Below, in pieces: positions 24,324 through 36,632 of a stretch of DNA of 64,000 nucleotides (position 1 is the first letter of the stretch; every line of letters begins with the position of its first letter). Where the stretch lies: contig CAYTIL010000025.1 of the NCBI GenBank assembly GCA_964437985.1, forward strand, positions 58,669 to 122,668, in the 5' to 3' direction. Made by a program: the position numbers and the translations under genes. The DNA comes from an uncultured Acidobacteriaceae bacterium. GTDB taxonomy: Bacteria > Acidobacteriota > Terriglobia > Terriglobales > Acidobacteriaceae. Under the pieces are notes generated by a model. It did no database searches. It was not told the DNA's origin and was given only the letters and a program-made list of their open reading frames with translations.

Positions 24324-24689
24324 CTAGGCGAAATTCCACAGCAGGTAGCCCGCAACCACCGTTCCAACGATCGCGCCGCCGTAACAGAATACAAAGATTA
24401 CCTCATTCAGGTGCTTGATTTGCAGGCCGTCATAAAGCGTGAAGCGAAAGCGGTGCGCCCAGTGGAAAAGCGGCAGCGAGCACAGCACGAACAGATAGAG
24501 CCGCGCGAAGGGGTGAGCAACCAGTTCGCGCAGGTGGTTGTAGGCGGGCGGGTCGATCCAGCCCAGCGGAAAGGCCAGTCCGAACAGAAACAGATGCACC
24601 GGCAGCAGGAAGGCCGCTACCACGCCGCCGGCGCTGAATAGTCCCCAGAAGAAAGGGTCGTTGGATCGTCCTGGCGTGCGCTTTCCCAT
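24324..24689 (-). CDS. frdD: Fumarate reductase membrane anchor subunit D
   Basis: DPFFWGLFSAGGVVAAFLLPV… aligns with the E. coli FrdD N-terminus ([21 protein letters not shown]). Confidence 0.75.
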   Translation of the reverse strand: MGKRTPGRSNDPFFWGLFSAGGVVAAFLLPVHLFLFGLAFPLGWIDPPAYNHLRELVAHPFARLYLFVLCSLPLFHWAHRFRFTLYDGLQIKHLNEVIFVFCYGGAIVGTVVAGYLLWNFA

Positions 24690-25091
24690 CTATCCTCGCA
24701 AAAGAAACCAGACCACAACCGCGGAAACACCGAGCCAGCCAACATAGTTGGGCGCGGCAATGAGCGCGTCGGGGACGCGCTTGCCGCGCACCCGCACGGC
24801 CATGGCGCTGGGCGCCAGGTTGAACCAGGTGATGGTGTGGTAGAGCACAAACAGCAGACTCACTCCATTCACCGCGACCAGCGCCGGCGTGCGCAGCCAG
24901 TCCTGCAGCTCGGCCAGCGCATGCGGGCCGTCCGCCAGGGCACGCACCAGGAGCAAGGTGAGCGCCACCGTCCAGGCCACGAAGATGCTGGTCATCTCGC
25001 GCAGGATGAAGCGCATGTAGGGCCAGCCCGCCAGCCACCAGTAGGTGGAAACGCGCTTGCGATACCAGCGGGGATGGAACTCGGTTGACAT
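24690..25091 (-). CDS. frdC: Fumarate reductase membrane anchor subunit C
   Basis: RKRVSTYWWLAGWPYMRFILREMTSIFVAW aligns with E. coli FrdC ([29 protein letters not shown]). Confidence 0.75.
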   Translation of the reverse strand: MSTEFHPRWYRKRVSTYWWLAGWPYMRFILREMTSIFVAWTVALTLLLVRALADGPHALAELQDWLRTPALVAVNGVSLLFVLYHTITWFNLAPSAMAVRVRGKRVPDALIAAPNYVGWLGVSAVVVWFLLRG

Positions 25092-25127
25092 CGGCCTTTT
25101 GCCTTTTTTACTTTTTACTTTTGCCTT

Positions 25128-25886
25128 TCACTTCCTGCCCCATGGCATCACAAACGCCTTGAACCACTCGGCGGCGGCGGTGAGCTTGTATTGTTGGATG
25201 GCGCCGGCCGGGTCCACGTGTTTGGGGCAGACGCGGGTGCACTCACCCACGAACGTGCAACCCCAGATGCCCTCATGGTCGCTCAGTTCCTCCAGGCGTT
25301 CGTGGGCGCCCTGGTCGCGCGAATCCTTGTTATAACGCTGCGCCAGCGCCAGCGCCGCCGGCCCGATGAATTGCGCGTCCAGCCCGACGACCGGACACGC
25401 GGAGTAGCACAGCATGCAGTTGATGCACATGGAGAACTGCTTGTAGGTCTCGAGCTGCTCGGGCGTCTGCAGGTATTCGCCTTCGGCCAGCGGTTTCTCC
25501 TGCTTGCGGATCAGCCACGGCTTGGCCCGGCGGAGCTTGGAGACGAAGTCGGCAACATCAGTCACCAGATCGCGAACCACGGGGAAGAAGCGCAGGGGCT
25601 CCACGCGCACCACGTTCTTCTTCTGGTAGTGAGAGAGAAAGGTGGCGCAGGTGAGCTTGGGCTCGCCGTCCACCATCATGCCGCAGGATCCGCAGATGCC
25701 CATGCGGCACGACCAGCGGTAGGAAAGCGTGCCATCGACGCGGTCTTTGATGTAGTTGAGTGCGTCCAGCACCACCCATTCTTTGCGATAGGGAACCTCG
25801 AAGCGCTCAAAGCGCGGTTCGGCGTCGCGCTCCGGTGAGTAGCGCGCGATTTCGACCAGGATGGTATCGGAAGTTCGGACGGGCAT
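25128..25886 (-). CDS. frdB: Succinate dehydrogenase/fumarate reductase iron-sulfur subunit
   Basis: It has a 2Fe-2S region ([15 protein letters not shown]) and 4Fe-4S/3Fe-4S regions ([25 protein letters not shown]). The start was taken at the ATG at 25886 ([19 protein letters not shown]) rather than the TTG-extended track start 25910. Confidence 0.9.
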
Positions 25887-25890
25887 GTCG

Positions 25891-26100
25891 TTAGGGCTGA
25901 TGCTTAGCAATCAGTTCGCGGACGACCGGCACCAGTTCGTGAGGAACTTCCATCACGACGTGGCCCTTGTCTTCCCAAAGGCCGCCTCGTCCTCCGCCAC
26001 CGCTTCTTCTTCCGTTTGCTCCGCGTAGTGGGACCGGACACGTCGAACTCGCTCCTCATCCCAGCCCGCGGGAAATTTACTTTGCCTCATTTCTGCCTCT
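25891..26100 (-). pseudogene. Small conserved-looking ORF in the frdA-frdB spacer, interrupted by a frameshift
   Basis: ATG 26100 with RBS agagg 7 nt upstream encodes MRQSKFPAGWDEERVRRVRSHYAEQTEEEAVAEDEAAFGKTRATS*. A second frame continues as …[27 protein letters not shown] and ends 4 nt before the frdB start. Both pieces look protein-like, which suggests one ~66 aa gene with a +1/-2 frame error near gcggcctttgggaagac. Confidence 0.3.
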
Positions 26101-26164
26101 TCTTACGCCTGCGCCGACGATACGCCATGAGCGGCTTCCCCTTCAACTCGTGCGCGAGTATCCA

Positions 26165-27922
26165 TCAAGCTTCCTTGCTCTGCTGCCCGTACACTCGCTC
26201 CCCCGGAGGCCAGCGCGTAATGGTGACCGGCAGATACTCGACGCGTGCCGAGCCGTCGGCATTGCGGTAAACCAGCGAGTGCGTCAAGTAATTGGCGTCG
26301 TCGCGCTTCGGAAAATCGGTACGCTGATGGGCGCCGCGGGATTCCTTGCGCTCCAGCGCGCTGCGGACAATGCACTCCGCCACGTCCAGCATGAACCCCA
26401 GCTCCAGCGCTGCTGGGAGTTCGGTGTTGAAGGTGCGGCTGGCGTCGTCGAGCATCACGTTGTGGTAGCGCTGCTGGAGTTCGCTGAGCGTCGCCGCCGC
26501 CTCGGCCAGGGAACTCCCGGTGCGGTAGATGCCCGCGCCCTGCTCGAGGGCTGACTGCATCTCTTCGCGAAGGGTGGCGATACGCTCCTTGCCTCCCTGC
26601 TTGAACAGATACTCCTGCTCGAGGCGCCGCTTCTCGTCATTGGCCTGGGCCTCGATGTGCGCTCCATGCCCCTGCTGCTCGGAAGCAAACTGCGCGGCGG
26701 CGCGGCCGGCCCGGGCGCCGAAGACCAGCAGCTCGGGCAGCGAGTTCGACCCCAGGCGGTTGGCACCGTTGATGGAGACGCACGCCACCTCGCCCGCAGC
26801 ATAAAGCCCGGCCAGCGGCGTGGCCCCGTGGATGTCGGTGGAAACGCCGCCCATCATGTAATGCGCTACCGGCCGCACCGGGATGAGCTCGCGCACCGGA
26901 TCAATGTTCTGGTACTTCAGGCAGAGTTCGCGGACGAACGGCAGCTTGGCGTTGATGAGCTTTTCGCCCAAATGGCGCAGGTCCAGGTGGACCACGGGGC
27001 CGTAGGGGGTCTCGATGGTGCGGCCCTTCTCCTGCTCTTTGACGAAGGCCTGCGACAAGCGATCGCGCGGGCCCAGTTCCATGGAGCGCAGCACCGGCGT
27101 GGGCTGCGGCGTGCCCAGGTTGTAATCCTGCAGGTAGCGGTAGCCGTCTTTGTTGAGCATGTAGCCGCCTTCGGCGCGCGCGGCTTCGGTAATCAGGATT
27201 CCGGTGAACGGCAGGCCGGTGGGATGGTACTGCACGAACTCCATGTCTTTGAGCGGAGCGCCGGCACGATAGGCCAGCGCCATGCCGTCGCCGTTCTTGA
27301 TGTTGGCGTTGGTGGTGAAGGGAAACACTTTTCCGCAACCGCCGGTGCACAGGATGACGGACTTGGCGGTGATGGCCGCGATGCGTCCGGTAGCAATCTC
27401 AATGGCCACCACGCCCTGCACGCGTCCCTCGTCGATCAGAAGGCGGGTGGCGAACCACTCGTCGTAGCGGGCGATGGCGTTGTATTTGAGCGAGGTCTGA
27501 AACAGCGTGTGCAGCATGTGGAAGCCGGTCTTGTCGGCGGCGAACCAGGTGCGCATCTTCTTCATGCCGCCAAAAGCGCGCACCGCGATGTGGCCGTCGG
27601 GGTCGCGGCTCCACGGACATCCCCAGTGCTCGAGCTGCACCATTTCCTCCGGCGCCTCGCGACAGAAGGCTTCCACCGCGTCCTGGTCCGGGAGCCAGTC
27701 GCCGCCGGAGATGGTGTCGTAGCAGTGGTCGTCGAGCGAGTCGTCGGGCTTGACCACCGCAGCCGCGCCGCCTTCCGCCGATACCGTGTGGCTGCGCATG
27801 GGATAGACCTTCGACACCACGGCCACGCTGAGCTTGGGATTCACTTCGGCCACGGCAATGGCAGCGCGCAGGCCCGCGCCTCCGCCGCCAATCAGGAGTA
27901 CGTCGTGGGAGGAAATGTCCAT
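26165..27922 (-). CDS. frdA: Succinate dehydrogenase/fumarate reductase flavoprotein subunit
   Basis: FAD motif [17 protein letters not shown], the covalent-FAD His region ([10 protein letters not shown]), and the active-site HPTG and R…H…R regions. Confidence 0.9.
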
Positions 27923-27982: not shown

Positions 27983-28867
27983 TTATGCGGCTGCGGCAGC
28001 CGCCCGGCGCTTGTGCTGGCGCAGCAAGGCGTGCAGCGACTCGGCAGCCAGGCCGTAGAGCATCAGGCGAAAGCCGGCCATGAGCGTGGACAGCGGAACC
28101 ATGGGGTGCTTATTGTTGACCAGCGCGATCTGTTCCGGAGCGCGCAGGATGCGGGCCACGTACAGGCCCACGGTCTCGTCCAGTTGCAGCGAATTCGAGG
28201 CGCGCCAGAAATCGTTATCGGTCAGGAAAAGCTGATAGAGCGGCGTGTAGAGCTCGATGGCGGTCTGCACGTCTATGAAGTTGCTCCAGCGGTTGGGGAA
28301 GTCCTCGATGGGGAAGGGTCCGTCGCTGATGGCATCGAAGTTGAAGCGCTCGGGCGTGTGCACGTCCAGCCCGGCTTCGCGCAGCTTGGTGTTCAGGCGG
28401 ATGACGAAGTTGAACAGGTTGAGGTCGTGCTTGAGGAAGAGGTCGTCCTTCACGCCTTCCAGCGAGCCGGGCTTGAGCGGATTTAGTTCCACTTCGATTT
28501 CCGGTGTGTTGGCGGCCACGAACGCCAGCACCTCCGACCCGATGTGGAAGTGGCGCAGGATGAGGAAGTTGGCCTCCGGGCTCACCCAGTACTTCAGTCC
28601 CCAGTAAATCAGGCGGTGCAGGATTTTCGAGGACGTGAAGCGGTTGGGGATGATGACCTTGAAGAGTTGAATCAGGATGATGGTCAGGCGCGCCAGCGGA
28701 CGCACCAGCGGCAGCAGAAACTGGCGAGAGCGCGAACGATTGCACAACAGCAGCGCGGCCTTGGCGTCGTCGTCGATGGGGATGCTGCGATCGAGGTACA
28801 GCGCCAGCCAGGGATCGGGGTCGCGCTGGTCGTAGGGGATCGAATCAAAGCGGTGCGCAAATTCCAT
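27983..28867 (-). CDS. Hypothetical protein
   Basis: 294 aa from MEFAHRFDS. No recognisable family. It lies downstream of, and probably co-transcribed with, the KASIII-HDO fusion gene. Confidence 0.5.
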   Translation of the reverse strand: MEFAHRFDSIPYDQRDPDPWLALYLDRSIPIDDDAKAALLLCNRSRSRQFLLPLVRPLARLTIILIQLFKVIIPNRFTSSKILHRLIYWGLKYWVSPEANFLILRHFHIGSEVLAFVAANTPEIEVELNPLKPGSLEGVKDDLFLKHDLNLFNFVIRLNTKLREAGLDVHTPERFNFDAISDGPFPIEDFPNRWSNFIDVQTAIELYTPLYQLFLTDNDFWRASNSLQLDETVGLYVARILRAPEQIALVNNKHPMVPLSTLMAGFRLMLYGLAAESLHALLRQHKRRAAAAAA

Positions 28868-28960: not shown

Positions 28961-30880
28961 CTAAGTGTTCCCCAGTTCCTCCAGTTGCAGGATGTATAAA
29001 CGCGCGGTGACGCGCGCCGTCTTCACGATGCGGTCCACCAGTTCCTTGGTCAGGATGCCGCTGGCCAGCGCCTCCTCCAGTTTGGCGAAGTGTTCTTCGT
29101 CGTTTTCACCGTGGTAGAGCAGGAAGGTCACCTGCTCGTTGCGCAAGTCGAGCTGCTCGCGGATCTTTTCTCCCCAGGGCCGGGCCAGGCGCATGCCCAA
29201 GCCTTCGATGATGAACATGGCGCCGATGAGGTCGAAGGGGTTCTCCTGGCCGGCGCGGTGGAACATCCATGCGGAAAGCGCCTCCGACCCGATGTTCTTC
29301 TCGCCGTGCTGGATGTCTTCCAACCGGCCGCCCACGGAGACGAAGTCGCGCTCCAGCATCTGAAAGTCGCGATGCTCTTCCTGGGCGTGCCCGATGAACA
29401 TGGAGCGCAGCGGAAAAGCGTCGGCGGTGATGTGCGACGCGGCGCGCGCGATCCAGCGCCCACCTTCCACCACCTGCTGGCGCAGGTTGAACAGCAACTC
29501 GCGGTAGTCCTCCACGCGCATTTTGCCGCGATTCATTTTGTCCACGATGGGGACGTGAGCCAGCCGGCCCTCGAAGTCCAGCCACACCTGCGCCAGGCGG
29601 CGCGTGAGCTCCGCCTGCAGGTCCGCAGTGTTGCGCGGCGGAGCGGGAGCTCCGGCGCCGCCCGAGCCGTTGGACTTCCCGGCCGCGGTTTCCGTCGCAG
29701 CCACGCCGCTGGGGTCGTGGTCGGCAGCCGTCACCACCGTCAGCAGCAGATAGGAAATCAGGAAGCGGCTGCTCTCCGGGACCATGCACAGAATCTTCTG
29801 CCCGGGCTGCAGGCGGCCTTCATTCATGAGTTCCTCGAGCATAATGAACAGCGACGCCGAGCCGGTGTTGCCCTTGGAGTAGAGGTTGGTAAACCATCGC
29901 TCTTCAGGGATCATGGCGCCGCCCTTGCGCAGCAGGTCGAAAATCTTGTCGCGGAAGATGTGCGACGAGTAGTGGCAGAGCATCCAGTCCACTTCCTGGG
30001 GACGGATTCGGCCGGCCTCGATCAGCTCGAAGTAGCGGCCTACGCCCAGCTTGACCACGTTGTCCAGCGCTTGCAGGTCCTGGCGCAGCAGGATGGCGCC
30101 GCTGGCGGCCGCGTCGCACACCGTGGGATAGCTCGACCAGGAGGTCAGGGCGCCGTCCTCACCCTTCACCGCGCCGGCGTACATGCAGACGTCGAGGCGG
30201 TTGGCGTAGGACACCAGATCAATCCACTCCACGCGCAACGAGAGTCCGCGCGCGTTGGGGCGCGACTCGAGCAGGGCGGCCCCCGCGCCATCGGAAAGCA
30301 TCCAGCGCAGAAACTCGGCGTCGAAGGGGATATGGCCGTCCTTCTGGTAGTCGCGCGTCCCCTCAAACAGGCCGGGACGAAAAAAGCGGCTGGCGAATTC
30401 GCTGGCACAGGCCACGGCGTTGTTGCGGTCTCCCGTGCGCACCCCCATCCAGGCGCTCTTCAGCGCCATCACTCCGCTGGTGCAGATGCCGTGCAGCGTG
30501 GCGATCTCGCAGGGCGGCAGCTTCAGCTCGCCGTGCACCATGCTGGCGAAACCGGGAGCCATCAGGTCTCCCTGGGAGGTGGCGGCAGCCAGATACTGCA
30601 CGTCGCGCAGGCCCAGCTCGGAGCGTTGCAGCGCGTCGCGCACGGCGTTGGCCGCGAGTTCGCAGTTGGTGTAGCGCGCGCGGCCCTCGCGATCAATGGC
30701 GTAGTGGCGGCTCTGGATGCCGTTTTGCTTCAGGATGCGGGCGCGCAGCCGCGAGGGCTTGCCTCCGATGCGCCCCAGGTGGTCTTCCATTTCGTCGTTG
30801 CCGACGGGATCCCCGGGCAGAAACTTCCCCAGGGCGGTGATGTATGCGGTGTTGCTCATGATGTCCTCCATCGTGGGCAT
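28961..30880 (-). CDS. FabH-like 3-oxoacyl-ACP synthase III fused to a C-terminal heme-oxygenase-like (iron-containing redox enzyme family) domain
   Basis: The N-terminal ~380 aa carry the KAS III catalytic triad (GICTSG Cys, CHYSSH His, KGNTGSAS Asn). The C-terminal ~230 aa (…DYRELLFNLRQQVVEGGRWIARAASHIT…EEHRDF…IIEGLG…) resemble the PF14518-type HO-like/diiron fold. The true start may be M8 (MSNTAYITALGKF). Confidence 0.7.
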   Translation of the reverse strand: MPTMEDIMSNTAYITALGKFLPGDPVGNDEMEDHLGRIGGKPSRLRARILKQNGIQSRHYAIDREGRARYTNCELAANAVRDALQRSELGLRDVQYLAAATSQGDLMAPGFASMVHGELKLPPCEIATLHGICTSGVMALKSAWMGVRTGDRNNAVACASEFASRFFRPGLFEGTRDYQKDGHIPFDAEFLRWMLSDGAGAALLESRPNARGLSLRVEWIDLVSYANRLDVCMYAGAVKGEDGALTSWSSYPTVCDAAASGAILLRQDLQALDNVVKLGVGRYFELIEAGRIRPQEVDWMLCHYSSHIFRDKIFDLLRKGGAMIPEERWFTNLYSKGNTGSASLFIMLEELMNEGRLQPGQKILCMVPESSRFLISYLLLTVVTAADHDPSGVAATETAAGKSNGSGGAGAPAPPRNTADLQAELTRRLAQVWLDFEGRLAHVPIVDKMNRGKMRVEDYRELLFNLRQQVVEGGRWIARAASHITADAFPLRSMFIGHAQEEHRDFQMLERDFVSVGGRLEDIQHGEKNIGSEALSAWMFHRAGQENPFDLIGAMFIIEGLGMRLARPWGEKIREQLDLRNEQVTFLLYHGENDEEHFAKLEEALASGILTKELVDRIVKTARVTARLYILQLEELGNT

Positions 30881-30940: not shown

Positions 30941-31025
30941 GTTACATCTGGTGACGTGGTCATCTGGTCAGGTGGTCATCTGAGGTTTTGAAGATGACCA
31001 GATGACTCGATGACCACATGACAAC
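30941..31025. repeat. Complex palindromic region: catctggtgacgtggtcatctggtcaggtggtcatctgagg-ttttg-aagatgaccagatgactcgatgaccacatgacaacatgg
   Basis: Tandem ggtcatctg units on the left are mirrored by cagatgacc units on the right around a tttt centre. It lies between the FAD-oxidoreductase stop and the KASIII-HDO start. Confidence 0.6.
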
Positions 31026-32371: not shown

Positions 32372-35020
32372 CTACTTCTCGGCCAGCTTCTCCCAGTTGA
32401 GCACCAGGTTCAGGGGCGGCGCTGTGGCTTCTCCGGCGCGCTTCTGCACCAGAAAGCGCTTGCCATCGGGGGCCACATCGAACTGCGGCAAATTTGGATC
32501 CATGTCGAACAGCTCCCGCGCCGGCCCCAGCGAAAACTGGTCGGCATTAGGGATCTCCACTGTCCGCATCTTGTTTTCGCCCACGTAATAGAGCTCCTTT
32601 CCATCCGGACTCCATCGCGGCGAAACGCCTCCGCTGCTCGAAACCTGCCATCTTCCCCCGGGACCGGGGAAAGCGGTTACGTAGACTTCGAGCCTTCCCG
32701 ATTCACCAGAAGCGTAGGCCAGCCACCTGCCATTGGGCGAGAGCCGGGCGTCCAATTCCAGGAACGGCCCATTGACGATGGGTCGCGGCTTGGGCTCTCC
32801 CGTGAGGGACAGATGAAGAATGTCCCAGTCGTTCGTGACATCTTGCCGGCCCAGGATTACAGAGCGGCCGTCGCGCGTCCACTCATAGACTGCGAGGCCT
32901 GTGTCCGCCTCCATCAGTTTTTGCGCAGCTCCGCCCCCGGCGGCTGGCTGCCGCATCAGCGTACCGCTCCATCCCTTGCCCTCCGCCCAAATGATCTCTC
33001 TTCCGTCCGGCGAGAACACCGCGGATGCGGATTGGGTACGCAGGAAGGTAAGGCGCGAAGCCGCATTGCGTTCCACGTCCACCACCCAAAGATCGCCGGT
33101 TCCACCAGCTTCCCCGAGGAACGTGGCCAGCTTCTTGCCGTCCGGCGACAACCGCGGATCCGACAGGAAGCCGGGCGCTCCCACGCTTCCCAGCATCCTT
33201 CCGGCCCGATCCACCCACTGGTACTGCACTTGGGTGAACGGTTCCGGGCGGTACACCAGCGCGCCGCGTTCGCTGGCCGAGAAATTTCCGATATCGCGCT
33301 GGCTGAAGTATTCCACTTTCTCGGCAATGGCCACCGGGCTCCCGGAAACCGCCAGGTCCCGCAGGCTGAAGCCCTGGGCCACTAGGTTCCCATTCTTAAT
33401 GAACAGCAGGAAACCGCCCGCGTACTGGGCCACCGAGCCGGGAGAGAGCACCAACTTGGGCGCAGACCCGTCGAGAGACCCGGCGTAAAGATCGCCGACG
33501 GTCTCTTGCGCCGTGCCCCGCAAAATGAACACAAAGTGCTTGCCATCCGGCAGGAAACGCGGGAATCGGTGGCTCACTCCCTTTTCCGGCTGGGTGACAG
33601 CGCGCGGCGTGCCGCCTCCCTCCGGCACCTGGTAGAGCGCGTCGGCGATGTTGGGAGTGAATAGGATGACGCCCTCGGCGCCCCACGTGCCTCCCCGACC
33701 ATTAGGCGCGTCGCACAGGACCTCCACGGCTCCGCCCGAGGCGGCGATCTTCTTCAGCCGGCCGTCGGCAAAGAAGGCGAGAAAACGGCCGTCGAAAGAC
33801 CAGAAGGGAAACGCCGCTTCTTCGGTCCCGGCCAGAACCTGGGACTGGCCAGTAGCCAGGTCGCGCACCCACAAGGCCCTGCTCTTGCCGCTGAACCCGA
33901 GAAAAGCCAGCCGGTCGCCGCGGGGCGAAAGCGCGACGCTGCCGTTAACCACCCCACCGAATTCCTGCCCCGCCGGTGGATTGATGTCCGCCTTCACCAG
34001 TTGGGACGCCGTACCTGCCCGGCGCGCGTAGAAGCCCGTGGAAACCATCGCGGCCAGCGCCAGCACCCATCCGGTCACCGCCACTCCCACACGCGCCCAG
34101 CGACTGAGCCGTAGCGATCGAGCCGGGGTCGCAGGGGCAGCCCGCGAGCCGCTCTCCTCGATCCACTTCAGCTCGCGCATCACGTCGGCGGAGCTCTGCC
34201 AGCGCTCCTCCGGATCCTTGGCCAGGCAAACCTTGATTACGTGCTCCAGCGCCGCCGGCGCCAGAGGCTGAGCCGTGGTGATAGGCTCCGGCTCCTTTTC
34301 CAGAATCGCCGACGCCACCGAAAGCTGGCTTTTGCCCTCGAACGCGCGCTTCCCCGTGGCCATCTCGTAGAGCACCGCGCCCAAGGCGAAGATGTCGGAA
34401 CGGCCGTCCGCCTCCTTGCCCTCGATCTGCTCCGGCGACATGTACTGGAAGGTGCCCACGACAATACCCTTCTCCGTGATAGGACCGGTCGGACTGACCG
34501 GGCTCGGCGCCGTCACTGCCGACAGGCTGCTGGTGGTCGCCATCCTCGCGGGCTTGGCCAGGCCGAAGTCCACCAGCTTGGCGCCCGACTTGGTCAGGAC
34601 CACGTTTCCCGGCTTCAGGTCGCGATGGACCACACCCTGGCGATGCGCCCGCTCCAGCGCATCCGCCATTTCCATTCCGATTTTCAAGAGTTGAGGTGTG
34701 GGCAAGGGGCCGCGGAAGAGGCGCTGGGCCAGCGTCTCGCCTTCCAGGTACTCCATCACCAGGTAGTCGGTGCCGTCCTGGTGGCCCACGTCGTAGAGCG
34801 TGCAGATGTGCGGATGCTGCAGCGAGGAGATGGCCTTGGCTTCGCGCTCGAAGCGCTGCTTATGTTCGCTATTGGAGGAGAAATGCTCGGCGAGGACCTT
34901 GATGGCGACGATGCGCTCCAGGCGGGTGTCGCGGGCCTGATACACCTCGCCCATCCCGCCCGCACCAATGGGCGCGAGAATCTCATACGGCCCTAACGTG
35001 GTGCCGTTCGCGATCGCCAT
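32372..35020 (-). CDS. Serine/threonine protein kinase with C-terminal TolB-like beta-propeller repeats
   Basis: Hanks kinase motifs (GAGGMGEVY, VAIK, HRDLKPGNV, DFGLA, SPEQ), then a TM segment and repeated …SPDG(K/R)…F… propeller blades. Confidence 0.85.
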   Translation of the reverse strand: MAIANGTTLGPYEILAPIGAGGMGEVYQARDTRLERIVAIKVLAEHFSSNSEHKQRFEREAKAISSLQHPHICTLYDVGHQDGTDYLVMEYLEGETLAQRLFRGPLPTPQLLKIGMEMADALERAHRQGVVHRDLKPGNVVLTKSGAKLVDFGLAKPARMATTSSLSAVTAPSPVSPTGPITEKGIVVGTFQYMSPEQIEGKEADGRSDIFALGAVLYEMATGKRAFEGKSQLSVASAILEKEPEPITTAQPLAPAALEHVIKVCLAKDPEERWQSSADVMRELKWIEESGSRAAPATPARSLRLSRWARVGVAVTGWVLALAAMVSTGFYARRAGTASQLVKADINPPAGQEFGGVVNGSVALSPRGDRLAFLGFSGKSRALWVRDLATGQSQVLAGTEEAAFPFWSFDGRFLAFFADGRLKKIAASGGAVEVLCDAPNGRGGTWGAEGVILFTPNIADALYQVPEGGGTPRAVTQPEKGVSHRFPRFLPDGKHFVFILRGTAQETVGDLYAGSLDGSAPKLVLSPGSVAQYAGGFLLFIKNGNLVAQGFSLRDLAVSGSPVAIAEKVEYFSQRDIGNFSASERGALVYRPEPFTQVQYQWVDRAGRMLGSVGAPGFLSDPRLSPDGKKLATFLGEAGGTGDLWVVDVERNAASRLTFLRTQSASAVFSPDGREIIWAEGKGWSGTLMRQPAAGGGAAQKLMEADTGLAVYEWTRDGRSVILGRQDVTNDWDILHLSLTGEPKPRPIVNGPFLELDARLSPNGRWLAYASGESGRLEVYVTAFPGPGGRWQVSSSGGVSPRWSPDGKELYYVGENKMRTVEIPNADQFSLGPARELFDMDPNLPQFDVAPDGKRFLVQKRAGEATAPPLNLVLNWEKLAEK

Positions 35021-35066: not shown

Positions 35067-36632
35067 CTACTCCGGCCACGCCGCGTACGCGTACAACATG
35101 TCCACCATGGACTGCTCGGCGCGCGCCAGACCCGCGACCTTGTCGTTGCCTTCGATGACCAGGTACTCGTCAATCGAGTGGGCGCGGCCGCCGTGGCCCA
35201 GCCCGGCGGAGACCGCGGCCAGGTTCAGCGGAGGCCGGGTGTACTGCGCCTGCGGGCTGGAGCCGGCCGAGCGCGGCCACACCGCGGGCTCGATTCCATA
35301 CTGCTTGTAGACGCTGAGCGCGCACTGCACCGGCGCGGTCTTCACCGAGGTGCGCGACCACTCGTCGCCGCCACCCAGCTTGCGCATCTCCAGGTCCGGG
35401 AAGCCGTTCTTGTCCAGGTGCTGGCGGATGAGCGCCATCTGTGCGTCGATCTCCTGATTAGGAACCAGGCGGGAGTCAATCTTGCAGGTGGCCTTCTCCG
35501 GCAGGATGGTGGCCATGCCCGGCCCGGTGTAGCCCGACCACAGGCCGTCAATGTTCAGCGAAGTATCGAACAGCAGATGACGCAGGGCCTCGGTATCGCT
35601 CCAGCCGTTCATCCACACCTTGGCGTTCGTCTTCTCGCTGGCCAGGGCGCGCCCGCCGAATTTCTGGATGATGGCCGCCAGCAGTTGCTCCTCTTCTTCC
35701 GTGGGCGGCACGATGGCGTCGTAATAGTTGGGGATGAGGATGCGGTTGGTTTCGGAATCGAACATGGTGCGGAGGGCGGCAATGAGCCGCCAGTTGGGCG
35801 AATCGAGGATGGCCTTGCGCGAGGAATGGATGGGAATGTTTTGCGGTCCGCGTCCCCAACGTTTGCCGTGCGCCTCCAGCTCGAAGGCGGCAATGCCCTT
35901 CGTGCCCAGGGAAATCTCCACCGCGCCGTCGCTGTTCTGCGAGGGATCGAGGCTGAAGTGAGCGCTGCACTTCTTGAGCTGGTCGTAATAGGGAGCGAGC
36001 ACCTGGTGGAAGTGCGGCGAGCCCTGCTCTTCCTCGCCGTCGCAGGTAAAAAGGATGTTCACCGGGAGCTTGCCATCTACGGCGATGATGGACTCGCAAG
36101 CGTTGAGCAGCGCCACCAGCGGCCCTTTGGAGTTGTACGAGCCGCGCGCCATGATGCTCTTACCGAAGGGAGGACGGTCCACGACGCTCGCGGCCAGCGG
36201 CGGCGACGACCATTCCTTCTCGTCGTAGGGCTGGGTGTCGTACATGAAGTAATGGGAGATGGTCTTCTTCGCGCCCGCGTCGTAATAGGCAGCGGCCCCG
36301 GGAAGGCCGTCGGTCTTGGCAATCTCCGCCCACTGGCAGCCCATGCGCTTGAACATCGCCATGAGCGAATCCAGGCACTCGCTCATGTTCTCGCGGCCCG
36401 AAACCGGCGTCTTCCATCCCCAGCTTGAAATGCTGGGCAGACGCAGGAACTCCTGGATGCGGGCCACGTGATCGGACTGGTGGTCCTGGATGTGCTTGTG
36501 CGCCTTGCGCACCGCGGCCGAGTTCAGGACATCCTGGGCGAAGCCGTGAGGCTCGTCGAGAAATGCGAAAAAGCCGGCCGCGGCCGCCGTGCTGCCCAGC
36601 GTGCGTGAAAATTCCCGCCGTGTCACCGCCAT
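35067..36632 (-). CDS. M20/M28-type dipeptidase-like metallopeptidase with Tat signal
   Basis: Tat motif TRREFSRTLGSTAAAAGFF. It has an M20 metal-ligand region and dimerisation domain. Assignment is at family level only. Confidence 0.7.
   Translation of the reverse strand: MAVTRREFSRTLGSTAAAAGFFAFLDEPHGFAQDVLNSAAVRKAHKHIQDHQSDHVARIQEFLRLPSISSWGWKTPVSGRENMSECLDSLMAMFKRMGCQWAEIAKTDGLPGAAAYYDAGAKKTISHYFMYDTQPYDEKEWSSPPLAASVVDRPPFGKSIMARGSYNSKGPLVALLNACESIIAVDGKLPVNILFTCDGEEEQGSPHFHQVLAPYYDQLKKCSAHFSLDPSQNSDGAVEISLGTKGIAAFELEAHGKRWGRGPQNIPIHSSRKAILDSPNWRLIAALRTMFDSETNRILIPNYYDAIVPPTEEEEQLLAAIIQKFGGRALASEKTNAKVWMNGWSDTEALRHLLFDTSLNIDGLWSGYTGPGMATILPEKATCKIDSRLVPNQEIDAQMALIRQHLDKNGFPDLEMRKLGGGDEWSRTSVKTAPVQCALSVYKQYGIEPAVWPRSAGSSPQAQYTRPPLNLAAVSAGLGHGGRAHSIDEYLVIEGNDKVAGLARAEQSMVDMLYAYAAWPE

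What the first reader, a model, noticed from the sequence alone, without database searches (positions are those of the whole stretch)
28961..30880. FabH-type ketosynthase fused to a heme-oxygenase-like diiron domain
A KAS III catalytic core (Cys in GICTSG, His in CHYSSH, Asn in KGNTGSAS) is followed in the same 639 aa polypeptide by a ~230 aa domain of the iron-containing redox enzyme family (HO-like fold, the family that includes CADD, UndA-like and SznF-type N-/C-oxygenases). A condensing enzyme covalently tied to an O2-dependent diiron domain would couple Claisen condensation to an oxidative step such as decarboxylation, desaturation or N-oxygenation. It is co-located with a Tat-exported FAD oxidase upstream and a 294 aa unknown protein downstream. 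This domain combination is not a standard annotated architecture to my knowledge.
Basis: partly seen in the sequence, partly recalled or inferred. Interest (0 to 1): 0.65.

Follow-up and report, generated by a model that had tools for sequence, protein, structure and literature searches.

The report
DarB-type ketosynthase fused to dimetal oxidase
The gene is real and widespread: a ring-forming (StlD/DarB-type) fatty-acid ketosynthase fused to a heme-oxygenase-like metal oxidase domain, always paired with an uncharacterised DUF6999 gene, and it probably makes resorcinol-type lipids without the usual DarA aromatase.

Summary
The 639 aa ORF (28961-30880, minus strand; likely start 30859) is confirmed. 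The N-terminal domain is not generic FabH. It is a StlD/DarB-family cyclase-ketosynthase (StlD structure E 3.5e-99), with the Cys133/His303/Asn338 triad and the Glu161 position conserved. After a ~37 aa linker comes a heme-oxygenase-like (HDO) domain (AlphaFold pLDDT 95; TM 0.88 to 3dde, 0.84 to CADD, 0.71-0.75 to UndA). Seven ligand-type residues (H498, E502, D505, E559, H590, D594, H597) are conserved to ~30% identity. An Asp occupies the position of the usual ExxH histidine.

The fusion is not an artefact. At least 566 species-level genomes across many phyla encode the HDO domain, and 76 of the 80 best loci are fused. Split and triple-fused forms also exist.

The constant partner is the downstream DUF6999 gene (27983-28867), not the upstream FAD oxidase. 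DUF6999 is unrelated to DarA and has no related solved fold.

DarA and HDO/DUF6999 did not co-occur in 80 loci of each kind.

Best reading: a DarA-independent route in which the HDO domain oxidatively decarboxylates and aromatises the ketosynthase's carboxy-cyclohexanedione product. That chemistry is inferred, not shown. No paper describing it was found.

The parts
28961..30880 (-). KS-HDO fusion ORF: 639 aa from the first ATG, or 632 aa from the probable start at 30859. The stop codon is 28961-28963.
   Evidence: ORF list. Identical protein P0001 and fused homologs. GGAGGA lies 7 nt before the ATG at 30859, and the starts of StlD and homologs align to Met8.
29732..30859 (-). StlD/DarB-family ketosynthase/cyclase domain (residues 8-383). 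It carries Cys133, His303 and Asn338, plus Glu161, which aligns with Glu154 of StlD.
   Evidence: NCBIfam NF005293 at 455.7 bits (cutoff 450). StlD structure 5gk0 at E 3.5e-99 over residues 8-383. The four residues are conserved in 85-86 of 86 aligned KS sequences.
29621..29731 (-). Ala/Gly/Pro/Ser-rich interdomain linker (residues 384-420).
   Evidence: Sequence TAADHDPSGVAATETAAGKSNGSGGAGAPAPPRNTAD. It matches no domain model. Linker length varies among homologs, which are 620-670 aa in total.
28964..29620 (-). Heme-oxygenase-like (HDO) dimetal-type domain (residues 421-639). Candidate ligands are H498, E502, D505, E559, H590, D594 and H597.
   Evidence: PF14518 at 38.2 bits. AlphaFold2 model with pLDDT 94.9. 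Foldseek TM scores: 3dde 0.88, CADD 0.84, UndA 0.71-0.75. Conservation of the seven residues. Alignment to 3dde.
27983..28867 (-). DUF6999 partner gene (294 aa; a longer GTG-started ORF reaches 28894). It lies on the same strand, 93 nt downstream of the fusion.
   Evidence: PF22523 at 413.8 bits. Identical protein P0241 is 294 aa. DUF6999 is found downstream on the same strand in 75 of 80 loci from many phyla. It is fused to KS-HDO in P0375 and P0470.
30957..31016 (.). Four copies of TGGTCATC/GATGACCA, two per strand, in the intergenic region upstream of the fusion gene. This is a possible operator; whether it belongs to the system is uncertain.
   Evidence: Eight matches in the window against 1.5 expected, four of them here. 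The motif is not conserved in the 89% identical relative L090.

Best explanation
The locus encodes a two-gene, three-module cassette (KS-HDO fusion plus DUF6999). I read it as a DarA-independent version of the bacterial dialkylresorcinol/cyclohexanedione pathway.

Step 1 is inferred from family membership. The StlD/DarB-type KS domain takes a beta-ketoacyl thioester and a 2-enoyl thioester, probably fatty-acid-synthase ACP intermediates because no ACP gene is nearby. It joins them by Michael addition and Claisen cyclisation into a 2,5-dialkyl-cyclohexane-1,3-dione-4-carboxylate.

Step 2 is inferred. The tethered heme-oxygenase-like domain binds two metal ions (Fe/Fe or Fe/Mn) through H498/E502/D505, E559 and H590/D594/H597 and activates O2. 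It then oxidatively decarboxylates this labile beta-keto acid in an UndA-like reaction (loss of the beta-hydrogen and CO2), which creates the double bond that tautomerises to the aromatic resorcinol. This is the job done by the unrelated DarA/StlC aromatase in canonical systems. Fusion would let the oxidase capture the intermediate before it decarboxylates non-oxidatively.

Step 3 has an unknown role. DUF6999 is an all-helical, probably membrane-associated protein with a conserved His/Asp/Glu/Arg constellation. It acts with the other two modules, for example in thioester release, a further ring or chain modification, or handing the lipid to the membrane.

In some lineages membrane fatty-acid desaturase or hydroxylase genes are inserted in the cassette, which is consistent with a long-chain lipid product.
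For: Shown:
- The KS domain is StlD/DarB family and aligns end to end with the StlD crystal structure at E 3.5e-99.
- Cys133, His303, Asn338 and Glu161 are conserved in 85-86 of 86 KS sequences.
- HDO-linked KSs form one clade inside the family, next to a DarA-linked Streptomyces DarB. Bootstrap support is 100/100 if that sequence is allowed inside.
- The C-domain has an HO-like fold, with pLDDT 94.9 and TM 0.84 to dimetal CADD and 0.71-0.75 to the decarboxylase UndA.
- Seven His/Glu/Asp residues on the three core helices are conserved down to ~30% identity.
- The three modules are fused in pairs (76 of 80 loci), occur split (Pseudoalteromonas, L076, L080, L085) and occur fused all together (P0375, P0470).
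- DUF6999 is downstream in 75 of 80 loci across many phyla.
- DarA-position proteins are unrelated to DUF6999 and to the HDO domain.
- There is no DarA or ACP homolog in the window or in the 80 HDO loci.
- In 80 DarA loci, 69 have a DarB-like KS and none has an HDO or DUF6999.
- FA_desaturase genes sit in or next to the cassette in 13 loci and FA_hydroxylase genes in 7.

From the literature:
- DarB/StlD make carboxy-cyclohexanediones, and DarA/StlC aromatise them with decarboxylation (review PMC6836626).
- 'DarA-less' DarB clades with unknown products are noted in the same review.
- UndA is an HDO fatty-acid decarboxylase whose substrate carboxylate ligates Fe1 (PMC13108848).
Against: - No product, metal content or activity is known for any member.
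- The canonical helix-1 His of the HDO 3H/3C set is replaced by Asp505, judged by alignment to 3dde. I had no model coordinates, so I could not check that H498, E502 and D505 converge on a metal site.
- Some fused homologs (P0376, P0377) have lost E502 and H597 equivalents, so the domain is not always a metalloenzyme.
- Two proteins (HDO and DUF6999) replacing one (DarA) is not parsimonious, and the aromatase could be DUF6999 instead.
- The review's authors suggested that DarA-less DarB homologs may not make carboxy-CHDs at all.
- The non-co-occurrence result rests on two samples of 80 loci, and the members of each sample are related to one another.
- The score against the strict DarB model is below its cutoff (388.7 against 550).
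Confidence: 0.4

Rival explanations
1. The KS makes the cyclohexanedione ring as in canonical systems, but DUF6999 is the functional replacement of DarA (decarboxylase/aromatase). The HDO domain then performs a further O2-dependent tailoring step on the ring or side chain, such as hydroxylation to a hydroxyquinone/quinol lipid, desaturation or C-C cleavage.
For: DUF6999 (~295 aa) is close in size to DarA (~320 aa). It retains ~35 residues at 97% or more across phyla, rich in His, Asp, Glu and Arg, which looks like an active site. It has a hydrophobic helix, and DarA has a hydrophobic C-terminus. It travels with the KS as consistently as the HDO does. HDOs are known for hydroxylation, N-oxygenation, desaturation and C-C cleavage.
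Against: DUF6999 shows no sequence or profile similarity to DarA and no recognisable fold relative that would suggest redox or decarboxylase chemistry. Aromatisation is itself an oxidation, which the O2-activating domain is equipped to do. The HDO, not DUF6999, is the module usually fused to the KS.
Confidence: 0.25
2. This KS clade does not form a cyclohexanedione. It performs another head-to-head condensation, giving for example a 2-alkyl-3-ketoacid or a pyrone. The HDO then acts like UndA on the resulting acid to give a long-chain olefin, ketone or other hydrocarbon-like lipid.
For: HDO-linked KSs are a separate clade, with ~40% identity to DarA-linked enzymes against 52% among themselves. 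They score below the strict DarB model cutoff. The cyanobacterial review argues that DarA-less homologs may have different products. UndA is a structural neighbour. The context includes lipid-modifying genes.
Against: A DarA-linked Streptomyces DarB groups with or inside the HDO-linked clade, so the clade boundary does not track a clear change of chemistry.
Confidence: 0.15
3. The C-terminal domain is not a metalloenzyme. It is a cofactor-less HO-fold module (TenA/PqqC-like), or a structural or substrate-binding appendage of the KS.
For: TenA proteins are among the top structural matches (TM ~0.75-0.79). The canonical ExxH His is Asp. Some fused homologs have degenerate ligand positions. The best sequence relative in the PDB, 3dde, is a structural-genomics entry of unknown function.
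Against: H498, E502, D505, E559, H590, D594 and H597 are conserved across phyla on the helices that carry the metal ligands in HDOs, including an exact H-x3-D-x2-H motif. Pfam assigns PF14518 above its gathering cutoff, and no TENA_THI-4 match was reported at E 0.01 or better. CADD with bound Mn/Fe is a closer structural match than any TenA apart from a similar E-value.
Confidence: 0.1
4. The fusion is an assembly or gene-calling artefact that joins two neighbouring genes.
For: Split versions with separate KS and HDO genes do exist.
Against: The window has a single uninterrupted ORF. The same fusion is present in 76 of 80 loci, including complete chromosomes (CP034235, CP183886, CP173678), and in more than 100 protein clusters from independent samples.
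Confidence: 0.01

Closest known systems
StlD (Photorhabdus) and DarB (Pseudomonas, Chitinophaga) ketosynthase/cyclases with the DarA/StlC aromatase (dialkylresorcinol, cyclohexanedione and isopropylstilbene pathways)
   Same: The KS domain is a full-length homolog (E 3.5e-99 to StlD, about 45% identity). It has the same Cys-His-Asn triad and the Glu aligned with StlD Glu154, and it passes the StlD/DarB NCBIfam cutoff. The cassette is small, and like the cyanobacterial brt cluster it has no dedicated ACP.
   Different: There is no DarA/StlC homolog in the window or in 80 related loci. A fused HDO domain and a DUF6999 gene are present instead, and DarA loci never carry these. HDO-linked KSs form their own clade. 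The score is below the strict DarB model cutoff. The product is unknown.
UndA (Pseudomonas 1-undecene synthase), a heme-oxygenase-like diiron oxidative decarboxylase
   Same: It shares the HO-like helical fold (TM 0.71-0.75), the H-x3-D-x2-H helix and a bridging Glu helix. It acts on a lipid substrate with a carboxylate, and oxidative decarboxylation that creates a C=C bond is the chemistry proposed here.
   Different: Sequence identity is only ~18%. UndA is a stand-alone enzyme. From my own recollection, UndA has the canonical E-x2-H on helix 1, whereas this family has H-x3-E-x2-D. The proposed substrate is a cyclic beta-keto acid, not a free fatty acid.
CADD (Chlamydia pABA synthase) and PDB 3dde (Shewanella denitrificans Sden_3740, unknown function)
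   Same: These are the closest solved structures (TM 0.84 and 0.88). 3dde is the only PDB entry detectable by sequence (E 1.3e-9 with the family profile) and shares the His, Glu, Glu and H-x3-D-x2-H positions.
   Different: Identity is 14-21%. CADD is a self-sacrificing Fe/Mn enzyme with no KS partner. 3dde has His where this family has Asp505.
SznF-type 3H/4C heme-oxygenase-like N-oxygenases
   Same: They are multi-domain proteins containing an HDO domain, and the ligand count is three His plus four carboxylates.
   Different: In SznF the extra carboxylate comes from an auxiliary helix. Here the extra residues lie on core helix 1, and the auxiliary-helix position (E472) is not conserved. No nitrogen-containing substrate is suggested by the context.

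Membership tests
StlD/DarB family beta-ketosynthase (NCBIfam NF005293) | Score above the curated family cutoff over the full model | tested here: met
   455.7 bits against a cutoff of 450, residues 12-383 on model positions 1-378. The margin is narrow.
StlD/DarB family beta-ketosynthase | Cys-His-Asn catalytic triad, plus the Glu aligned with StlD Glu154 | tested here: met
   Cys133, His303, Asn338 and Glu161 align with the corresponding StlD residues and are conserved in 85-86 of 86 family sequences. The role of Glu154 as catalytic base is recalled from the StlD structural paper, which I did not re-read here.
Dialkylresorcinol DarB proper (NCBIfam NF053539) | Score above the curated cutoff | tested here: not met
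   388.7 bits against a cutoff of 550.
Canonical darABC / stlCDE system | Adjacent DarA/StlC aromatase gene | tested here: not met
   There is no DarA homolog in the 64 kb window or in 80 related loci. DUF6999 is unrelated to DarA-position proteins.
Canonical darABC / stlCDE system | Dedicated ACP gene in the cluster | tested here: not met
   No ACP homolog in the window or in the 80 loci. Some genuine systems, such as brt, also lack one.
Canonical darABC / stlCDE system | Product is a carboxy-cyclohexanedione or dialkylresorcinol | not testable with these tools
   This needs expression and LC-MS.
FabH (KAS III, TIGR00747 / NF006829) | Score above the curated cutoff | tested here: not met
   58.4 bits against 292.1, and 76.4 bits against 249.
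Heme-oxygenase-like dimetal oxidases/oxygenases (HDO; Pfam PF14518) | Pfam model above the gathering score | tested here: met
   38.2 bits against 28.9, residues 507-629.
Heme-oxygenase-like dimetal oxidases/oxygenases (HDO) | HO-like helical fold | tested here: met
   Model pLDDT 94.9. Foldseek probability 1.00 with TM 0.88 (3dde), 0.84 (CADD) and 0.71-0.75 (UndA).
Heme-oxygenase-like dimetal oxidases/oxygenases (HDO) | 3 His / 3 carboxylate (or 3H/4C) primary ligand set on the core helices | tested here: inconclusive
   E502, E559, H590, D594 and H597 sit at canonical positions. The canonical helix-1 His aligns with invariant Asp505, and there is an extra invariant His498. The count is 3 His plus 4 carboxylates but the arrangement is non-canonical. 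The geometry could not be checked because no model coordinates were available.
Heme-oxygenase-like dimetal oxidases/oxygenases (HDO) | Binds two metal ions and activates O2 | not testable with these tools
   This needs metal analysis, Moessbauer or EPR spectroscopy, and activity assays.
TenA / PqqC (cofactor-less HO-fold enzymes, PF03070) | Match to the family model | tested here: not met
   No PF03070 match at E 0.01 or better. The only resemblance is structural, at the level of the shared fold.
DUF6999 (PF22523), for the downstream gene | Pfam model above the gathering score over its full length | tested here: met
   413.8 bits against 27, model positions 2-275 of 275.

The most novel reading that the evidence does not exclude
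KS-HDO plus DUF6999 is a widespread, previously unstudied three-module pathway found in Acidobacteria, myxobacteria, planctomycetes, Verrucomicrobia, Paenibacillus, cyanobacteria and some Proteobacteria. It makes an as yet unidentified class of resorcinol- or quinone-type lipid. In it a heme-oxygenase-like enzyme with a new ligand arrangement (H-x3-E-x2-D on helix 1) carries out a reaction type not yet known for the superfamily, namely decarboxylative aromatisation of a carbocycle. DUF6999 would be a new enzyme fold.
Probability: 0.3. Interest if true: 0.78.

Novelty: new variant of a known kind. Interest (0 to 1): 0.62.

Why it matters
DarB/StlD ketosynthases build dialkylresorcinols, cyclohexanediones and bacterial stilbenes, which serve as signals, antibiotics and pigment anchors. 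Reviews have noted 'DarA-less' homologs whose products are unknown. This analysis shows that a large, cross-phylum group of such homologs carries a specific replacement partner set: a heme-oxygenase-like oxidase domain and DUF6999.

The result has three uses:
- It gives a concrete, testable hypothesis for the missing aromatisation step.
- It adds a KS-tethered clade with an unusual ligand motif to the fast-growing HDO enzyme superfamily.
- It assigns a first functional context to DUF6999.

The cassette is only two genes and occurs in cultured Paenibacillus and Myxococcus, so the hypothesis can be tested directly by heterologous expression.

Tried and rejected
1. DUF6999 as DarA/StlC. Rejected: BLASTP found nothing, hhalign probability was 0.1%, and DarA-position proteins have no Pfam hit.
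3. The Tat-signal FAD oxidase as a pathway partner. Rejected: it is conserved only where the whole neighbourhood is syntenic and is absent in L001, L002 and L091.
4. Extra N-terminal domains in the very long ORFs of L016 and L074. None was found, so these are probably over-extended ORF calls in GC-rich DNA.
5. Sequence search of the PDB for characterised HDO relatives. Only 3dde was found, with a single sequence or with the profile, so residue-level alignment to UndA or CADD was not possible. The structure tool gives no coordinates, so ligand geometry was not checked.
6. Literature searches for DUF6999, KS-HDO fusions, and dialkylresorcinol together with HDO. No relevant paper was found.
7. 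Promoter and terminator scans around the cassette gave nothing useful.
8. Failed or weak scripts. One script failed on file names and one tree script timed out; both were rerun. The ACP count in the DarA loci is unreliable because of how the query file was built, and I do not use it.
Full report
OBSERVATION

The window contains an uninterrupted 639 aa ORF at 28961-30880 on the minus strand. Pfam finds a KAS III C-terminal domain (43.8 bits) and PF14518 'iron-containing redox enzyme' (38.2 bits, cutoff 28.9) in the same chain. The two are joined by an Ala/Gly/Pro/Ser-rich linker at residues 384-420.

The probable start is the second in-frame ATG at 30859 (Met8). GGAGGA lies 7 nt upstream, and StlD and close homologs start at the equivalent residue. 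Residue numbers in this report keep the 639 aa frame.

WHAT THE TWO DOMAINS ARE

The N-terminal domain is not a FabH in the strict sense. FabH models score 58-76 bits against cutoffs of 249-292. The StlD/DarB family model scores 455.7 bits, just above its cutoff of 450. The StlD crystal structure (5gk0) aligns over residues 8-383 at E 3.5e-99.

The catalytic Cys, His and Asn are conserved in 86 of 86 aligned family members, and the Glu aligned with StlD Glu154 in 85 of 86. According to the review PMC6836626, StlD/DarB enzymes do not elongate. They join a beta-ketoacyl and a 2-enoyl thioester head to head into a carboxy-cyclohexanedione, which DarA/StlC then aromatises with decarboxylation.

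The C-terminal domain (residues 421-639) gives a confident AlphaFold2 model (pLDDT 94.9). The fold is heme-oxygenase-like. The best PDB matches are 3dde (TM 0.88), the dimetal enzyme CADD (0.84), TenA proteins (~0.75-0.79) and the diiron decarboxylase UndA (0.71-0.75).

I aligned 38 fused and stand-alone homologs, then divergent representatives down to ~30% identity. The conserved polar set, in domain numbering, is H78, E82, D85, E139, H170, D174 and H177. In full-length numbering these are H498, E502, D505, E559, H590, D594 and H597. They lie on the three helices that carry the ligands in HDOs.

- H-x3-D-x2-H and the lone Glu are canonical.
- On the first core helix, the profile alignment to 3dde puts the family's invariant Asp where 3dde has the His of an E-x2-H motif. 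An additional invariant His lies four residues before the Glu.
- The count is therefore three His plus four carboxylates, in a non-canonical arrangement. The 3H/3C and 3H/4C definitions are from PMC13108848.
- H503, E472, E510 and E533 are not conserved in distant members.
- I could not inspect coordinates, so the metal-site geometry is unverified.
- Two fused representatives (P0376, P0377) have lost two of these residues.

IS THE FUSION REAL, AND WHAT TRAVELS WITH IT

The identical protein and more than 100 fused clusters at 63-89% identity exist, mostly Acidobacteria.

I scanned one genome per species using the HDO-domain alignment. They include Acidobacteriota, Myxococcota, Planctomycetota, Verrucomicrobiota, many cultured Paenibacillus, Cohnella and Bacillus, cyanobacteria, Alphaproteobacteria and others, among them complete chromosomes.

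In the best 80 loci:
- 76 have the KS-HDO fusion, 3 have separate adjacent KS and HDO genes, and 1 is interrupted.
- 75 have a DUF6999 gene downstream on the same strand. Most of the remainder end at a contig edge.

Other forms of the same cassette:
- Pseudoalteromonas sp. THAF3 has KS, HDO (49% identical to the domain here) and DUF6999 as three consecutive genes.
- P0375 and P0470 fuse all three modules in one protein.
- A Nostoc plasmid carries a decayed copy.

By the usual gene-fusion and gene-neighbourhood argument, the three modules function together.

The HDO subfamily itself is compact. It has 384 representatives at 50% clustering with E of 1e-3 or better, and both fused and stand-alone lengths occur.

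The upstream Tat-signal DAO-family oxidase is present only in 87-89% identical relatives, in which the entire neighbourhood is syntenic (M20 peptidase, DAO, KS-HDO, DUF6999, fumarate reductase). It is absent in relatives at ~70% identity. It is not part of the system.

Genes that recur in or beside the cassette in other lineages:
- a membrane His-box fatty-acid desaturase (PF00487) in 13 loci, usually between KS-HDO and DUF6999;
- a fatty-acid hydroxylase (PF04116) in 7 loci;
- a small multi-pass membrane protein in 6 loci, plus Pseudoalteromonas.

These point to a long-chain lipid product.

DUF6999 AND DarA

The window's DUF6999 protein (294 aa) matches PF22523 at 414 bits. All 120 listed homologs are unnamed or called DUF6999, and no paper in the library mentions it.

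For genuine DarA-type proteins I used the gene before DarB in a Burkholderia darA-darB-ACP locus and the gene after DarB in a Streptomyces cluster. The two are 35% identical to each other. They show no similarity to DUF6999 or to the HDO domain by BLASTP or profile comparison.

No DarA or ACP homolog occurs in the 64 kb window or in the 80 HDO loci. Conversely, I fetched 80 DarA loci from metagenomes. Of these, 69 contain a DarB-like KS, which lies downstream of DarA in all 43 loci with room on both sides. None contains an HDO or DUF6999.

In a neighbour-joining tree the HDO-linked KSs, fused and split, form one clade, and the proteobacterial-type DarA-linked KSs form another. The Streptomyces DarA-linked enzyme sits next to or inside the HDO-linked clade. 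Bootstrap support is 100/100 if it is allowed inside and 49/100 for strict monophyly. Mean identity is 52% within the HDO-linked group and 40% between groups.

INTERPRETATION

The KS domain is best read as a working StlD/DarB-type cyclase. It is nested in the family and keeps the catalytic residues, so a carboxy-cyclohexanedione is the most likely first product. This is an inference.

Canonical systems need an oxidant, DarA/StlC, to turn that labile beta-keto acid into a resorcinol. Here DarA is absent and an O2-activating type of domain is tethered to the KS. The HDO UndA converts a carboxylic acid to an alkene plus CO2, with the carboxylate bound to Fe1. The same transformation applied to the ring carboxylate and its neighbouring C-H would give the double bond that tautomerises to the aromatic ring.

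I therefore propose that the HDO domain is a non-homologous replacement for DarA, and that fusion serves to capture the unstable intermediate. My confidence in this specific mechanism is about 0.4. That the cassette is a DarA-independent variant of DarB-type lipid or polyketide chemistry seems considerably more likely.

The role of DUF6999 is open. It could be the decarboxylase/aromatase, with the HDO adding a further oxidation (rival, 0.25). The KS clade may make a different condensation product (0.15). The HO-fold domain may not bind metal (0.1). An assembly artefact is excluded.

COMPARISON AND NOVELTY

The nearest known systems are darABC/stlCDE for the KS, and UndA, CADD and 3dde for the oxidase domain.

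The architecture is abundant in databases and carries routine names ('StlD/DarB family beta-ketosynthase', 'iron-containing redox enzyme family protein'). However, the 2019 alkylresorcinol review only notes 'DarA-less' DarB homologs with unknown products. The 2026 HDO review mentions no ketosynthase fusion. My searches found no study of the fusion or of DUF6999. The library does not cover most subscription-only papers.

I class it as a new variant of a known kind. The refined finding is more specific: a DarB-type KS, a variant ligand set, DUF6999 as obligate partner, and non-co-occurrence with DarA in the loci sampled.

Noticed in passing
window 30957-31016: There are four copies of TGGTCATC/GATGACCA, two on each strand, within 60 nt of the intergenic region upstream of the KS-HDO gene. 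The window has 8 copies against 1.5 expected. The motif is absent from the same region of the 89% identical relative L090. It may be a strain-specific operator.
   Followed up: partly
window 30859-30880: The first ATG (30880) is probably not the start. GGAGGA precedes the ATG at 30859, and StlD and homologs begin at the equivalent Met8, giving a 632 aa protein.
   Followed up: yes
window 24324-27922 (minus strand): A fumarate reductase/succinate dehydrogenase-type operon (flavoprotein 26165-27922, Fe-S subunit 25128-25910, two small membrane subunits) follows DUF6999 directly. It is syntenic only in close relatives, so it is probably unrelated to the cassette.
   Followed up: partly
P0375 (868 aa) and P0470 (469 aa, partial): These are single polypeptides carrying KS, HDO and the start of DUF6999, that is, triple fusions of the whole cassette.
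   Followed up: partly
P0376 (633 aa) and P0377 (627 aa): These fused KS-HDO representatives have Gly at the E502 position and Asn or Gln at the H597 position. Some lineages may therefore carry a metal-free, possibly inactive, HO-like domain.
   Followed up: no
L013, L015, L020, L023, L024, L032, L033, L047, L051, L065, L075, L079, L087 (mostly between KS-HDO and DUF6999): A ~275 aa membrane His-box fatty-acid desaturase (PF00487) is inserted in or next to the cassette. A fatty-acid hydroxylase (PF04116) recurs in 7 loci, and a ~190 aa multi-pass membrane protein with no Pfam family recurs in 6 loci plus Pseudoalteromonas.
   Followed up: partly
L006 3825-6537 (Nostoc flagelliforme plasmid pNFSY08): This locus holds a frameshifted KS-HDO fusion followed by a truncated DUF6999. 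It is a decaying copy of the cassette on a conjugative plasmid and is not annotated in the record's gene table.
   Followed up: partly
L091 8996-11248: In one Acidobacterial relative, three genes separate KS-HDO from DUF6999: a 112 aa ORF, a GNAT acetyltransferase and a 447 aa protein with no Pfam family.
   Followed up: no
L007 4367-6137 (Prevotella nigrescens plasmid); also Bacteroides and Phocaeicola plasmids H9-H11: In L007 a StlD/DarB-family KS sits next to a TetR regulator with no annotated neighbour resembling DarA, HDO or DUF6999. Bacteroides and Phocaeicola plasmid hits (H9-H11) carry a homologous KS overlapping a regulator gene; their wider context was not fetched. This may be a third, partner-less context for the family in gut and oral Bacteroidota.
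   Followed up: no
window 32372-35020 and 35067-36632 (minus strand): Upstream neighbours are an 882 aa Ser/Thr protein kinase fused to PD40 beta-propeller repeats, and an M20 peptidase with a twin-arginine-like signal (TRREFSRTL). Neither shows any evident link to the cassette.
   Followed up: no
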